60,393 nt of DNA from a virus (taxonomy: Duplodnaviria > Caudoviricetes). A program made the position numbers and the translations under genes. The first letter of the stretch is position 1; every line of letters begins with the position of its first letter. The notes beneath the pieces are model-generated. The model saw only the letters and a list, made by a program, of their open reading frames with translations, had not been told where the DNA came from and made no database searches. Below, one piece after another: positions 24,013-25,889 of the stretch. The stretch is taken from positions 1 to 60,393 of IMG/VR virus record IMGVR_UViG_3300031164_000001. One strand, given 5' to 3'.

Positions 24013-24465
24013 ATGGCGCTCACTGTCGCATCGGAACTGAACTGGGAAACCCCGCCGGAAAAGGAATTCGTCACGTCCGGCGGTGCGCAGGTTTCCGAAG
24101 AGTGGCTACAGGTAGCCGAAGTACTGGCCGCACACCCCCAGGAGTGGGCCCGCATCGCATCGGCGGAGAAGCTTCCCCAAGCGTCAGCCCTCGCGCACCG
24201 GATCAACAAGGGGCGCTCGCGTGCGTTCGAACCGGCTGGATCGTATGAGGCAGAGGCCCGGACCGATGGCAACGGCGGGGGGCTGGTGTGGGCCCGCTTC
24301 GTCGGCGAGAACGTCGATCCCGTGAAGACTCTTTGGGAGGGCAACAAGGTCGCGACGCTCAAGGAAATGGCCAAGGACCGAGGGCTCAAGGTTTCTGGTT
24401 CTGGCAAGGAACTTGCGGCGCGCATCGTCGAGCACGATCAGGCGCAGTTGTCGCTAGTGGACTGA
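24013..24465 (+). CDS. Protein with C-terminal SAP domain
   Basis: 'KVATLKEMAKDRGLKVSGSGKELAARIVEHD' matches the SAP consensus. Confidence 0.7.
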   Translation: MALTVASELNWETPPEKEFVTSGGAQVSEEWLQVAEVLAAHPQEWARIASAEKLPQASALAHRINKGRSRAFEPAGSYEAEARTDGNGGGLVWARFVGENVDPVKTLWEGNKVATLKEMAKDRGLKVSGSGKELAARIVEHDQAQLSLVD

Positions 24466-24624
24466 TCACCGGTCTGTCGCGCGGGAAAGCTTTTACCGGC
24501 AGACACAGCACCACCCCTCGCATGAAGCGCACCCCCGATATAGGGCGGCCCGCTTACCTATGCGCCATGCGAGGTTAACGCGGAACGGGTCGATCAATGT
24601 CGACTAAGGTCGGCCCGTTTCGCG

Positions 24625-24687
24625 GGCACTGGACGCGCATAAGACGGATCATTGCATCCGCACCGGGTTCGATTCCCGGCAGTGCCA
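24625..24687 (+). ncRNA. 63-nt D-armless tRNA-like element
   Basis: GGCACTG/CAGTGCC-A acceptor, canonical CCGGG-TTCGATT-CCCGG T arm, CGGAT-CATTGC-ATCCG hairpin; preceded by two long hairpins (about 24516-24574, 24579-24624). Confidence 0.7.
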
Positions 24688-24705
24688 CGCGAATAGGAGG
24701 ATTTT

Positions 24706-25437
24706 ATGACTCGGCTTAATCAGATCATCGCATTGGCGAAGGACGCCAAAGGCCAGGGCGAAGCGTCACTGACCAAGGGGTACCACGAGCTTCAAAAGAC
24801 ACAGCTCCTTTCAGGACTGTCCCGTGTGTACGCCCCGGTCGACGAAGAGGGAGACAAGCTCCCCCCGGAATCCACTCGCGTACAAATTCGTACGGACGAA
24901 GTGATCAAGACCGTCACTACACGTCTGACGCGAATGTTTGACGTGGTGGCCACGCTGGAAAACGCAAACACGAACGCTCGCGCAAGTGTCATTGTCGACG
25001 GCGACACACTATTGCCTGACGTGCCGGTTGTTGTGCTGATCTTCCTCGAAAAGAAGCTTGACGACCTGATGACGTTCATTCGCAAACTGCCCACATTGGA
25101 CCCGTCCGAAGAGTGGGTATTCAGCGAGTCCGTCAACGCGTACGCCACCGTGCCGACGCAAACCACCCGGACAAAGAAGGTGCCCAGAAACCACGTGCGC
25201 GCACCGGCGACGGACAAGCATCCGGCCCAAGTGGACATGTGGTACGAGGATGTCCTCGCGGGTACGTGGACCATCGTCAAGTTCTCCGGCGCGCTCCCAG
25301 CGTCCCGCGTGGCTGAGCTATTGGGCCGTGTCGAGCGGCTACAGCAAGCGGTCACCATGGCGCGCGAAGAGGCAAACTCGATCGAAGTTACGGACGTCCA
25401 CATCGGACAGCAGTTCTTCGATTACCTCTTCGCCTAA
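24706..25437 (+). CDS. Conserved hypothetical protein (recalled as DUF7873-like; needs HMM check)
   Basis: AGGAGG RBS; 'LNQIIA...LPPESTRVQ...TKKVPRNHV.A.AT.KHPAQV...KFSGALP...AREEAN'. Confidence 0.75.
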   Translation: MTRLNQIIALAKDAKGQGEASLTKGYHELQKTQLLSGLSRVYAPVDEEGDKLPPESTRVQIRTDEVIKTVTTRLTRMFDVVATLENANTNARASVIVDGDTLLPDVPVVVLIFLEKKLDDLMTFIRKLPTLDPSEEWVFSESVNAYATVPTQTTRTKKVPRNHVRAPATDKHPAQVDMWYEDVLAGTWTIVKFSGALPASRVAELLGRVERLQQAVTMAREEANSIEVTDVHIGQQFFDYLFA

Positions 25438-25440
25438 AGC

Positions 25441-25859
25441 TTCCCCTATGGACTTAGGGGAATGGACACAGACTCAGACTCAGATTGAAATTCAAGCTCA
25501 GTAGCCGCCGGACAGTGCAAGTTCGAATCTTGCCCCGGGCACCACATGCCCGGGTAGCCCAATTGGAAGAGGCACCGGCACTCAATCAGGCTCTTGTCCA
25601 AGACTCAACATTGCTACAGCGCACCAAATCGACCACGCGCGAACGACCCTTAGCCGGATGCGGGTTCGAATCCTGCCGGGGCCTCCACTCATGGCCCCGT
25701 AGTCCAATGGCAAGACACGGCGAGACATCAGACTGATTCACGCGTTTAAAAGTGTTGGCGCGATCATGGGTAGCAAACAATGGAAGCTCACACCCGAGCA
25801 ACGGTCTCTTAAACCGTACACATTGGAAGGGGCGGGTCGTCGGATATGCGGCCCGCCCC
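25441..25859 (+). ncRNA. Large structured RNA containing two circularly permuted tRNA-like modules and a D/anticodon module
   Basis: Modules at 25507-25579, 25653-25721 and 25778-25825; long-range stems; terminal GC hairpin 25829-25859. Confidence 0.8.
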
Positions 25860-25889
25860 GCTTAAAAACCCCATCAGAGGAGGACGAAA

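What the first reader, a model, noticed from the sequence alone, without database searches (positions are those of the whole stretch)
24013..25860. Candidate RNA-protein system: SAP protein + mini-tRNA + DUF7873-like protein + tRNA-mimic RNA
Seen: a SAP-domain gene, about 240 nt of stacked hairpins ending in a 63-nt tRNA-like element 7 nt before the AGGAGG RBS, the 243-aa gene, and the structured RNA starting 4 nt after its stop and closed by a GC hairpin. The protein has N- and C-terminal helices around a basic beta-hairpin-like segment (TTRTKKVPRNHV). Inference: the protein is the dedicated partner of the RNA, playing the role Ro60 plays for Y RNA, and the two travel as a cassette acting on translation or in counter-defence.
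Basis: inference. Interest (0 to 1): 0.88.

Follow-up and report, generated by a model that had tools for sequence, protein, structure and literature searches.

The report
Conserved protein plus twin tRNA-like RNA
A phage gene of unknown function (DUF7873) is followed by a 425-base structured RNA carrying two tRNA look-alike domains, and this gene-RNA pair recurs in phages and bacteria of several phyla, pointing to an undescribed RNA-protein partnership.

Summary
ORF 24706-25437 is a full-length Pfam DUF7873 protein (E 2e-99). The 425 nt after it (25438-25862) is a structured RNA with two circularly permuted, YrlA-like tRNA heads on long stems.

The gene and RNA are linked well beyond this phage. 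A covariance model of module 1 finds the RNA on the gene's strand in 54 of 58 IMG/VR loci, 76 of 80 bacterial loci and all 9 named phages. In 151 Streptomycetaceae genomes, 77 of 77 strong RNA matches lie 51-111 nt after a DUF7873 gene, and no DUF7873-negative genome has one.

In Herpetosiphon the single gene and the single RNA lie 1.8 Mb apart. In one viral contig the RNA precedes the gene. So the RNA is a gene in its own right.

The phage has no Ro60/TROVE gene. The SAP-like gene and the upstream mini-tRNA are not conserved with the pair.

The RNA is below threshold in Rfam 15, and I found no paper on it. Direct binding and function are untested. My reading is a Ro60-independent tRNA-mimic RNP.

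The parts
24706..25437 (+). DUF7873 gene (243 aa), the protein half of the conserved pair
   Evidence: Pfam PF25283 E 2e-99, full length. It has no PHROG, PADLOC or NCBIfam match. A profile search finds 2591 clusters at 50% identity with E <= 1e-3, nearly all of 243-250 aa. The AF2 model has pLDDT 88.2 and no convincing fold match.
25438..25862 (+). Whole conserved structured RNA (about 425 nt), the RNA half of the pair
   Evidence: blastn finds it in at least 71 of 147 homolog loci. Covariance model R1 finds it in 54/58 and 76/80 loci, always on the gene's strand. Covariation is shown. No Rfam family reaches its cut-off here.
25440..25464 (+). 5' hairpin at the gene-RNA junction
   Evidence: Seen in the fold. 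An equivalent hairpin follows the stop codon in Streptomycetaceae loci. It is missing from the free-standing Herpetosiphon RNA, so it may belong to the junction and not to the RNA core (inference).
25465..25506 (+). Run of 6-nt periodic repeats (GACUCA / CUGA-type) leading into module 1
   Evidence: TRF reports period 6, 3.3 copies, at 25465-25484. The consensus of 51 sequences keeps CUGA-like words at 6-nt spacing. A role as a protein-binding array is inference.
25507..25579 (+). Module 1: permuted tRNA-like head. Order: anticodon-like stem 3' strand, T arm 25517-25533, acceptor 3' strand 25534-25540, loop ACCACAU 25541-25547, acceptor 5' strand 25548-25554, D arm 25557-25573, anticodon-like stem 5' strand 25575-25579.
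   Evidence: Rfam YrlA 25.4 bits at 25509-25577. My pattern detector finds it. R1 scores 113 bits. Across 51 sequences, 11 of 16 pairs show compensatory changes.
25580..25611 (+). Linker with a conserved hairpin motif (CUCUUG/CUCUCGCUCC type)
   Evidence: Conserved columns in alignment A2. The same motif is visible in GodonK, Mimi, NiceHouse, Pam2 and KpLz-2_45.
25612..25775 (+). Domain 2: long stem (closing helix 25612-25617 with 25770-25775) carrying module 2. Module 2: T arm 25660-25676, acceptor hairpin 25677-25699 with loop UCCACUCAU, D arm 25702-25717.
   Evidence: Rfam YrlA 24.7 bits over the whole model at 25636-25747. 31 pairs in 7 helices, 30 with compensatory changes, 0 of 500 shuffles as good.
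25776..25828 (+). Window-specific insert with a small hairpin (5-bp stem, 7-nt loop) at about 25801-25817
   Evidence: Absent from most relatives in my alignment. At the same place Virgisporangium (L087) carries a full tRNA (Rfam tRNA 54.4 bits at 5067-5139).
25829..25859 (+). Terminal 11-bp GC hairpin with a conserved loop (GGAUAU here; GGNUA in relatives)
   Evidence: A perfect hairpin of 7 bp or more with a GGNUA loop lies 200-900 nt after the gene in 89 of 142 loci. Elsewhere on the same strand there are 17 in 825 kb. In Herpetosiphon a U run follows it.
24625..24687 (+). Upstream D-armless tRNA-like element, 7 nt before the RBS. It is specific to this phage lineage and not part of the conserved pair.
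   Evidence: Rfam mascRNA-menRNA 29.8 bits and tRNA-Sec 20.7 bits, both under their cut-offs. Not called by ARAGORN. The spacer has 0 blastn hits in 147 loci. In other phages a real tRNA often occupies this place: GodonK, NiceHouse and RHph_Y65.
24013..24465 (+). SAP-like ORF (150 aa): a neighbour, not part of the conserved pair
   Evidence: SAP 22.7 bits against a cut-off of 23.9. phrog_2660, unknown function. A homolog occurs in 1 of 147 loci, 1.8 kb from the gene.

Best explanation
The window is a complete temperate siphovirus-like phage. Its early region carries a two-gene cassette: a DUF7873 protein gene, followed by a gene for a roughly 425-nt non-coding RNA.

The RNA has two domains. 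Each is a long stem capped by a circularly permuted tRNA-like head, in the order T arm, 7-bp acceptor stem closed by a short loop, then D arm. This is the design of bacterial YrlA Y RNAs.

I read protein and RNA as the two halves of one ribonucleoprotein that works without Ro60. DUF7873 would hold the non-tRNA scaffold (the 6-nt repeats, the stems, the terminal GGNUA loop). The tRNA-like heads would engage enzymes or factors that recognise tRNA.

[quoted passage not shown] They are therefore probably nicked in the acceptor loop, leaving a multi-piece RNA with tRNA-like ends.

What is shown and what is inferred:
- Shown: the structure, its conservation, and the two-way genomic linkage.
- Inferred: direct binding, processing, and a role in tRNA handling or surveillance. 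Phages that carry tRNA arrays would co-opt that role.
For: Identity of the parts: Pfam DUF7873 E 2e-99. YrlA is the best Rfam model for both modules (25.4 and 24.7 bits).

Structure: 11 of 16 pairs in module 1 (51 sequences) and 30 of 31 pairs in domain 2 (49 sequences) show compensatory changes. 0 of 500 shuffles reach the observed values, and slid controls pair only 41-47% of cells.

Linkage from protein to RNA:
- Strict pattern detector: 50 of 55 evaluable IMG/VR loci and 72 of 80 bacterial loci. Background is 5 hits in 137 kb and 5 in 306 kb upstream, and 4 in 310 kb and 1 in 671 kb on the other strand.
- Model R1: 54/58 and 76/80 loci. All 250 matches are on the gene's strand.
- Named phages of Gordonia, Arthrobacter, Rhodococcus, Microcoleus, Pseudanabaena, Klebsiella and Rhizobium all have it.

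Linkage from RNA to protein: in 151 Streptomycetaceae genomes, 77 of 77 matches of 96 bits or more lie 51-111 nt after the gene. The other 18 full-length genes are followed by the same RNA with the head of module 1 replaced by a plain hairpin. No DUF7873-negative genome has a strong match.

The RNA acts in trans:
- Herpetosiphon aurantiacus has one gene and one RNA 1.8 Mb apart. The RNA lies between unrelated ORFs, with promoter-like and terminator-like sites.
- In L053 the RNA precedes the gene.

No third partner: no other conserved neighbour was found in the 80 bacterial loci.

Independence from Ro60:
- There is no TROVE gene in this phage or in 4 of 5 other phage records.
- 37 of 96 DUF7873-positive Streptomycetaceae genomes have no TROVE match (my count).
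- Rsr-adjacent YrlA-like RNAs in the same genomes are separate loci with different stems.

tRNA context: the cassette sits inside tRNA arrays in GodonK, Mimi, NiceHouse and RHph_Y65.

Processing precedent: M. smegmatis YrlA, which has a 7-bp acceptor stem, is cut by RNase P in vitro and is cut and CCA-extended in vivo (Chen 2014, PMC4201824, passages read).

Protein constraint: mean column identity is 72% over 45 sequences from several phyla, and length is uniform.
Against: - No experiment or prediction shows that the protein touches the RNA. The complex predictor takes no RNA.
- The protein is slightly acidic (pI 5.49; family median 6.15, range 5.4-7.9), unlike most dedicated RNA binders. Only the 152-172 hairpin is basic.
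- Its fold matches nothing informative, so no RNA-binding domain can be named.
- The tRNA-like head of module 1 is dispensable in 18 of 95 Streptomycetaceae cassettes, and Rhizobium phages show only one module. A strict two-head mechanism is therefore unlikely.
- An encoded CCA after the acceptor stem is present in only 25 of 94 module-1 loops and 48 of 125 module-2 loops.
- Three Herpetosiphon loci, one Polyangiales MAG and viral locus L068 have no RNA next to the gene. The RNA was located elsewhere only for H. aurantiacus.
- Model R1 was trained on 51 of the loci it later scored, so those matches are by construction.
- Expression is unverified.
Confidence: 0.6

Rival explanations
1. The RNA is simply a divergent YrlA Y RNA that works with the host's Ro60 ortholog (Rsr). 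DUF7873 is an accessory factor of that pathway, or is merely co-regulated, and is not the RNA's own partner.
For: - YrlA is the best Rfam match for both modules. It covers the whole model on domain 2 in the window, GodonK, KpLz-2_45, RHph_Y65 and Mimi (24.7-38.2 bits).
- Rsr-adjacent YrlA candidates in Streptomycetaceae also score only 38-43 bits, so a low score does not exclude kinship.
- TROVE matches occur in 59 of 96 DUF7873-positive and 23 of 55 DUF7873-negative Streptomycetaceae genomes, an odds ratio of about 2.2 by my count.
- RHph_Y65 has a TROVE ORF about 6 kb from the cassette.
Against: - There is no TROVE gene in this phage or in GodonK, Mimi, NiceHouse and KpLz-2_45.
- 37 of 96 DUF7873-positive genomes have no TROVE match.
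- In genomes that have both, the Rsr-adjacent YrlA-like RNA is a different locus whose stems differ in sequence.
- The RNA tracks DUF7873 exactly (77 of 77 strong matches), not TROVE.
- The weak association may only reflect genome size or phylogeny.
Confidence: 0.12
2. Protein and RNA form a conflict system. One version is a tRNA decoy or sponge against tRNA-targeting nucleases, or conversely a defence or type III toxin-antitoxin-like pair. In this reading the RNA neutralises or is processed by the protein, with no housekeeping tRNA role.
For: - The cassette is carried by many phages, often within tRNA arrays. Such arrays are thought to offset host attacks on tRNA (recalled, not from a call).
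- Its genomic contexts in bacteria are variable.
- It is a compact protein-plus-structured-RNA pair.
Against: - The protein has no PADLOC match.
- The protein is unusually conserved for a conflict gene: about 60% identity across phyla, 72% mean column identity.
- It is single-copy and present in 96 of 151 Streptomycetaceae species.
- The heads lack anticodon loops, which are the usual nuclease target (structure).
- The RNA is not a tandem array. TRF finds only a 6-nt repeat of 3.3 copies.
- The RNA lies after the gene, not before it.
Confidence: 0.12
3. The RNA is a cis-acting part of the DUF7873 transcript, such as a 3' UTR stabiliser, processing punctuation or terminator region, and has no function of its own.
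For: It starts directly after the stop codon with no promoter-like site in the window. It ends in a terminator-like hairpin. tRNA-like structures are known processing signals (mascRNA is the best Rfam match for the upstream element).
Against: - Herpetosiphon keeps the full RNA 1.8 Mb from the gene, with its own promoter-like and terminator-like sites.
- In L053 the RNA lies upstream of the gene.
- In Keelan a tRNA separates gene and RNA, and in the Microcoleus phage an inserted element does.
- The RNA is conserved in sequence at distances where the protein is only 40-50% identical.
Confidence: 0.04
4. The modules are decayed or rearranged tRNA genes, left over from phage tRNA arrays, and have no function.
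For: tRNA genes are frequent neighbours in phages: 6 of 9 named phages and 31 of 58 IMG/VR loci have one within 2.5 kb. Tandem tRNAs can mimic the T arm-acceptor-D arm order; the roughly 45-bit full-length R1 matches seen in many genomes may be such pairs (my guess).
Against: Compensatory changes maintain every helix, including the long non-tRNA stems. The same architecture occurs in several bacterial phyla and in phages of three host phyla. The position relative to the gene is fixed.
Confidence: 0.01

Closest known systems
Ro60 (Rsr) with YrlA Y RNA. Sources: Chen et al. 2014, PMC4201824, passages read; Wang et al. 2018 preprint 10.1101/312249, abstract read.
   Same: A non-coding RNA encoded next to its protein partner. 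The RNA is a long stem capped by a tRNA-like domain, ordered T arm, closed acceptor stem, D arm. It is found in bacteria and phages. YrlA is the best Rfam match for both modules here.
   Different: - The neighbouring protein is DUF7873 (243 aa, helical hairpins plus a beta-hairpin), not a roughly 500-aa TROVE/vWA ring.
- There is no TROVE gene in this phage.
- The RNA is about 425 nt with two heads, 6-nt repeats and a conserved terminal loop. YrlA is about 110 nt with one head.
- Scores are 24.7-38.2 bits against a cut-off of 69.
- The stems differ from the Rsr-adjacent YrlA-like RNAs of the same genomes.
Two-piece (circularly permuted) tmRNA with SmpB
   Same: A permuted tRNA-like domain in which the 3' acceptor strand is encoded before the 5' strand. 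It has a dedicated small protein partner and is also carried by phages. Weak Rfam matches to permuted and beta-proteobacterial tmRNA fall on module 2 (13.1 and 13.8 bits).
   Different: No reading frame for a tag and no pseudoknots were identified. A full D arm is present. There is no G3:U70 pair in the window's modules (read from the sequence; the alanine identity rule is recalled). The protein has no match to SmpB families in Pfam. The scores are far under the cut-offs.
Large structured RNAs of phage tRNA arrays, such as GOLLD. This is recalled. The only text seen was a reference title on GOLLD in Mycobacterium tRNA arrays, inside PMC9569102.
   Same: A large, conserved non-coding RNA of unknown function that sits among tRNA genes in phages and also occurs in bacterial chromosomes.
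   Different: No Rfam match to GOLLD, ROOL or any other large RNA. This RNA has an obligate protein-coding neighbour and recognisable tRNA-like heads.
mascRNA/MALAT1-type tRNA-like processing signals. This applies to the upstream element only.
   Same: The element at 24625-24687 has an acceptor stem and a T arm but a reduced D region. Its best Rfam match is mascRNA-menRNA, 29.8 bits. It sits where RNase P or RNase Z cleavage would free the downstream mRNA 5' end (inference).
   Different: It is below the cut-off of 42.5, and mascRNA is a vertebrate family. The resemblance concerns shape only. The element is not conserved in other DUF7873 loci.

Membership tests
Pfam DUF7873 (PF25283) | Full-length match to the family HMM above the gathering score | tested here: met
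   332.7 bits against a cut-off of 27; residues 1-242 on profile positions 1-242 of 244. Confirmed in six-frame search.
YrlA Y RNA (Rfam RF02553) | Reaches the Rfam gathering score (69 bits) | tested here: not met
   25.4 bits (25509-25577) and 24.7 bits (25636-25747). Relatives score 24-38.2 bits. Caveat: Rsr-adjacent candidates in Streptomycetaceae also reach only 38-43 bits.
YrlA Y RNA (Rfam RF02553) | Encoded next to a Ro60/Rsr (TROVE) gene, the criterion used by Chen 2014 | tested here: not met
   No TROVE match anywhere in the complete 60,393-bp phage. Absent from 4 of 5 other phage records. In bacteria the RNA sits next to DUF7873, and no TROVE neighbour cluster was seen.
YrlA Y RNA (Rfam RF02553) | tRNA-like domain ordered T arm, closed acceptor stem, D arm, on a long stem | tested here: met
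   Both modules. Covariation.
YrlA Y RNA (Rfam RF02553) | Bound by Rsr in vivo | not testable with these tools
   Needs immunoprecipitation.
tRNA (Rfam RF00005 / ARAGORN) | Cloverleaf with anticodon arm, detected by tRNA finders | tested here: not met
   ARAGORN and Rfam at gathering threshold call only tRNA-Gln at 10923-10995 in the window. The modules are permuted and lack an anticodon loop. The upstream element lacks a D arm and has a 6-nt loop.
Permuted tmRNA (Rfam RF04321) | Reaches the gathering score (47 bits) | tested here: not met
   13.1 bits on 25660-25701 only.
SAP domain (PF02037), for ORF 24013-24465 | Match above the Pfam gathering score | tested here: inconclusive
   22.7 bits against 23.9, E 7.3e-5, residues 112-142 on profile positions 6-36 of 37.
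Known or candidate anti-phage defence proteins (PADLOC-DB 2.0) | Match to any PADLOC model | tested here: not met
   0 families at E <= 0.01 for DUF7873, the SAP-like ORF and ORF 25890-26303.

The most novel reading that the evidence does not exclude
DUF7873 and its twin tRNA-like RNA form a widespread class of bacterial and phage ribonucleoprotein that has not been described and does not depend on Ro60. After cleavage by RNase P and addition of CCA, the RNA would become a multi-piece scaffold presenting one or two genuine tRNA acceptor ends. These ends might even be chargeable. The particle would act directly in tRNA surveillance or in translation, and phages would use it to manage the tRNA pool during infection.
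Probability: 0.3. Interest if true: 0.9.

Novelty: new variant of a known kind. Interest (0 to 1): 0.8.

Why it matters
Only a handful of stable RNA-protein particles are known in bacteria: the ribosome, RNase P, SRP, tmRNA-SmpB, 6S RNA-RNA polymerase, Ro60-Y RNA and the CRISPR effectors (recalled). This pair would add one.

It is common. The protein family has 2591 clusters at 50% identity. It is found in 96 of 151 sampled Streptomycetaceae species and in phages of Actinomycetota, Cyanobacteria and Proteobacteria.

It gives a testable function to a large family of unknown function. It also assigns an identity to a 400-nt stretch that is currently unannotated, or annotated with small spurious ORFs, in many phage genomes.

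It shows that the YrlA type of tRNA mimicry is not tied to Ro60. That bears on the open question of what the tRNA-like domain of Y RNAs is for. Its position inside phage tRNA arrays links it to how phages manage tRNA supply.

Tried and rejected
Fold and remote homology of DUF7873:
- Foldseek against PDB gave no match at E <= 0.001. The weak top rows were TolC and PUR-alpha.
- The VIA-align wide search gave a best Z of 7.9, on helical hairpins only. That is within the range the tool calls uninformative.
- BFVD gave one match at E 2.7e-4 with TM 0.21 and rmsd 38 Å, which I dismiss.
- A PDB sequence profile gave nothing at E < 0.87.
- The ESM Atlas returned only DUF7873 clusters, plus unnamed proteins at TM of 0.55 or lower.
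- The search for longer, fused forms found one 457-aa protein carrying only PF25283.

On the third try the tool was reported unavailable. There is no result.

Expression: the look-up of sequencing runs listed 3 soil-metagenome DNA runs and no RNA holder. Read laying was therefore not used. This says nothing about expression.

Other dead ends and rejected ideas:
- The single-protein scan of viral contigs found no relatives. The alignment-based scan did.
- Kissing interaction: I considered pairing between the terminal GGNUA loop and the D-stem region of module 1. I dropped it because the loop varies while the module-1 sequence does not, and because the loop persists where the module-1 head is lost.
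- Third tRNA-like element: I first read 25765-25779 as a D-arm-like piece. The alignment shows it is the 3' strand of the closing helix of domain 2.
- TROVE matches in Streptomycetaceae cover only profile positions of about 277-358. I first doubted them, but YrlA-like R1 matches 1-2 kb away suggest they are real Rsr genes.

Literature:
- 'DUF7873' returned 0 papers.
- 'PF25283' and phrases for two, tandem or dual tRNA-like modules returned nothing relevant.
- Nor did YrlA + phage, tRNA-like / Y RNA / Streptomyces / Rsr, permuted tRNA + phage, tRNA-like / noncoding RNA / actinobacteriophage, tRNA-like domain / Y RNA / Ro60 / phage, or Streptomyces + tRNA-like + sRNA + RNase P.
- The library lacks most subscription journals, and supplements are closed. 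The supplementary tables of Chen 2014, which list the YrlA candidates, could not be checked for overlap with this RNA.

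
Full report
**What the window is.** The 60,393-bp window is a complete virus record with direct terminal repeats. It encodes an integrase (20614-22017, minus strand), an exonuclease, a primase/polymerase, a large terminase, a portal protein, a major head protein and a tape-measure protein. One tRNA-Gln lies at 10923-10995. The finding lies in the rightward early region, just past the integrase and several HTH genes.

**Checking the observation.**
- The 150-aa ORF at 24013-24465 has a C-terminal SAP match just under Pfam's cut-off (22.7 against 23.9 bits).
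- The 240-nt spacer folds better than all 200 shuffles (z -3.36).
- The spacer ends in a 63-nt tRNA-like element (24625-24687) with a 7-bp acceptor stem and a T arm but no D arm. Rfam's best models for it are mascRNA-menRNA (29.8 bits) and tRNA-Sec (20.7 bits), both under threshold. ARAGORN does not call it. The AGGAGG box starts 7 nt later.
- The 243-aa ORF is a full-length DUF7873 protein (E 2e-99).
- Its AlphaFold2 model (pLDDT 88.2, pTM 0.60) has long helical hairpins.
- The RNA begins directly after the stop codon and ends in an 11-bp GC hairpin at 25829-25859.

**Anatomy of the RNA.** Reading the sequence together with relatives gives the following order.
1. A junction hairpin (25440-25464).
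2. A run of 6-nt periodic repeats (TRF: period 6, 3.3 copies).
3. Module 1 (25507-25579).
4. A conserved linker hairpin.
5. Domain 2 (25612-25775), a long stem that encloses module 2.
6. A short insert specific to this lineage.
7. The terminal hairpin.

Each module is a circularly permuted tRNA. It runs: 3' strand of an anticodon-like stem, variable region, T arm with a UUCGAAU loop, 3' acceptor strand, short loop, 5' acceptor strand, two bases, D arm, 5' strand of the anticodon-like stem. This is the layout of the tRNA-like domain of YrlA Y RNAs (Chen 2014, passages; Wang 2018, abstract). YrlA is indeed the best Rfam match for both modules, at 25.4 and 24.7 bits against a cut-off of 69.

**The structure is under selection.**
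- In 51 module-1 sequences, 11 of 16 predicted pairs show compensatory changes.
- In 49 domain-2 sequences, 30 of 31 pairs in 7 helices do. 94.5% of cells are paired, against 73.0% in shuffles (0 of 500 as high) and 41-47% when partners are slid by 1-3 columns.
- A perfect hairpin of 7 bp or more with a GGNUA loop lies 200-900 nt after the gene in 89 of 142 loci. Elsewhere on that strand there are 17 in 825 kb.

**From protein to RNA.**
- tblastn found the protein in 46 phage records: hosts Gordonia, Rhizobium, Klebsiella/Serratia, Arthrobacter, Pseudanabaena, Ralstonia, Rhodococcus and Microcoleus.
- I fetched nine records. In each, the gene is followed by 270-1160 nt with no same-strand gene annotated.
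- In GodonK, Mimi, NiceHouse and RHph_Y65 the gene sits inside a tRNA array.
- All nine carry at least one permuted module after the gene on the same strand.
- A strict pattern detector (T arm, perfect 7-bp acceptor hairpin, D stem) found a module downstream in 50 of 55 evaluable IMG/VR loci and 72 of 80 bacterial loci. Three of the 58 IMG/VR loci have under 210 nt of downstream sequence and were not evaluable. 57 bacterial loci had two modules.
- Background for that detector was 5 hits in 137 kb and 5 in 306 kb upstream, and 4 in 310 kb and 1 in 671 kb on the opposite strand.
- A covariance model of module 1 (R1) matched 54 of 58 IMG/VR loci and 76 of 80 bacterial loci at E <= 0.01. All 103 + 147 matches are on the gene's strand. 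R1 was built from 51 of these loci, so those matches are by construction.
- The bacterial loci come from Actinomycetota, Chloroflexota, Armatimonadota, Deinococcales, Polyangiales and Blastocatellia.

**From RNA to protein.**
- In 151 Streptomycetaceae genomes, DUF7873 is present once in 96 of them. 95 copies are full-length and one is a fragment.
- R1 gave a clearly bimodal result: 77 matches of 96 bits or more, and everything else at 50 bits or below.
- All 77 strong matches lie 51-111 nt after the DUF7873 match, on the same contig and strand. No DUF7873-negative genome had a strong match.
- I fetched the 18 full-length genes that lacked a strong match. All 18 are followed by the same RNA, but the tRNA-like head of module 1 is replaced by a plain hairpin while module 2 is kept.

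**The RNA is a gene of its own.**
- Three Herpetosiphon loci and one Polyangiales MAG have no RNA beside the gene.
- In H. aurantiacus DSM 785 the genome holds exactly one DUF7873 gene (3,008,209-3,008,934) and one full RNA (R1 110 bits at 1,172,349-1,172,499). They are 1.8 Mb apart.
- That RNA lies between unrelated ORFs. It has a promoter-like site just before its conserved start and a hairpin plus U run at its end.
- In viral locus L053 the RNA lies immediately upstream of the single gene copy.
- In Keelan a tRNA separates the two. In the Microcoleus phage a HEARO RNA with its ORF does.
- These arrangements rule out a purely cis-acting 3' UTR element. They argue for co-retention of two trans-acting partners.

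**What is not part of the system.**
- A homolog of the SAP-like ORF occurs in 1 of 147 loci, 1.8 kb away from the gene.
- The upstream spacer with the mini-tRNA has no blastn match in the 147 loci, while the downstream RNA matches at least 71 of them.
- Clustering ORFs around the 80 bacterial genes found no conserved neighbour. The largest real cluster covers 11 loci.
- A tRNA within 300 nt upstream is occasional: 3 of 9, 6 of 58 and 5 of 80 loci.

**Relation to Ro60.**
- The phage has no TROVE gene. Neither do GodonK, Mimi, NiceHouse or KpLz-2_45. RHph_Y65 has one about 6 kb away.
- In Streptomycetaceae, TROVE matches occur in 82 of 151 genomes. By my count, 59 genomes have both genes, 37 have only DUF7873, 23 have only TROVE and 32 have neither.
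- The weaker R1 matches that cover only the tRNA-like core lie 1-2 kb from those TROVE genes. They score 38-43 bits on Rfam's YrlA model, and their stems are unrelated to domain 2.
- Two separate systems therefore share the same head design.

**The protein.** The family is large and uniform: 3169 clusters at 90% identity among the candidates scored and 2591 clusters at 50% identity, nearly all of 243-250 aa. There are no fused forms. It is strongly conserved, with 72% mean column identity over 45 sequences. It has no PHROG, PADLOC or NCBIfam match and no informative structural neighbour. Its pI is 5.5.

**Mechanism, with the steps marked.**
- Shown: a conserved, structured RNA with one or two tRNA-like heads. 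It is genomically coupled in both directions to DUF7873, independent of Ro60, and often among phage tRNA genes.
- Inferred: DUF7873 binds the non-tRNA scaffold. The heads recruit tRNA-recognising factors.
- Inferred from a precedent: the 7-bp acceptor stems are cut by RNase P and extended with CCA, as M. smegmatis YrlA is. An encoded CCA is present in the window's two loops, but in only 25 of 94 module-1 loops and 48 of 125 module-2 loops overall.

**Novelty.** No Rfam 15 family reaches threshold on this RNA, either in the window or in 16 bacterial loci. Eight literature searches found no description of the pair. Subscription journals and supplements were not covered. I file it as a new variant of the Y-RNA kind of tRNA-mimic RNP, with a new protein partner.

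Noticed in passing
L169 (Herpetosiphon aurantiacus), about 3514-3140 on the minus strand; gene at G002:C1:3008209-3008934: The single DUF7873 gene and the single copy of the RNA are 1.8 Mb apart. The free-standing RNA lacks the junction hairpin and has promoter-like and U-tailed terminator-like sites of its own.
   Followed up: yes
L053 2131-2415 (RNA) and 2501-3229 (gene): In this IMG/VR contig the order is inverted: the RNA lies directly upstream of the only DUF7873 copy.
   Followed up: partly
L151-L168 (18 Streptomycetaceae genomes): In a sub-lineage, the tRNA-like head of module 1 is replaced by a plain hairpin. The flanking repeats, the linker, module 2 and the terminal hairpin are all kept.
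   Followed up: partly
L006 (Microcoleus phage My-WqHQDG) 3950-5461: A HEARO RNA (Rfam 129.1 bits) and its 425-aa ORF lie between the DUF7873 gene and the best R1 match (5560-5691). This looks like a mobile-element insertion into the cassette.
   Followed up: no
L087 (Virgisporangium ochraceum) 5067-5139; window 25776-25828: A complete tRNA (Rfam 54.4 bits) is nested between domain 2 and the terminal hairpin. L015 appears by eye to have the same arrangement. At this position the window has only a short insert with a 5-bp stem and a 7-nt loop.
   Followed up: no
L170-L174 and the matches near TROVE genes: Rsr-adjacent YrlA-like RNAs of Streptomycetaceae score only 38-43 bits on Rfam's YrlA model (cut-off 69). 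Standard annotation would therefore miss them.
   Followed up: partly
L002 (Gordonia phage GodonK) 384-912: Rfam finds a tmRNA (90.3 bits) here. The record's annotated 62-nt 'tRNA-His' (463-524) lies inside that match and is probably a mis-call.
   Followed up: no
L002 4003-4131 (minus strand): The small hypothetical ORF annotated in GodonK (gene 151) overlaps module 2 of the RNA on the opposite strand. It is probably not a real gene.
   Followed up: no
L011/L012 (Rhizobium phage RHph_Y65, record 139762-140505): A 529-aa ORF with TROVE matches lies about 6 kb downstream of the DUF7873 cassette. This phage therefore carries both a Ro60-like gene and the DUF7873 pair.
   Followed up: no
window 26798-27145 and 27163-27501; window 23323-23973 and 26287-26778: There are two pairs of paralogous early genes. 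One is a tandem pair of phrog_889 ORFs. The other is two HTH proteins that both match phrog_29861 and flank the cassette.
   Followed up: no
for example G021:C11:1063021-1063161: Many Streptomycetaceae genomes, with or without DUF7873, have one full-length R1 match of about 44-48 bits and 134-141 nt. I guess these are a conserved tandem tRNA pair, but I did not look at them.
   Followed up: no
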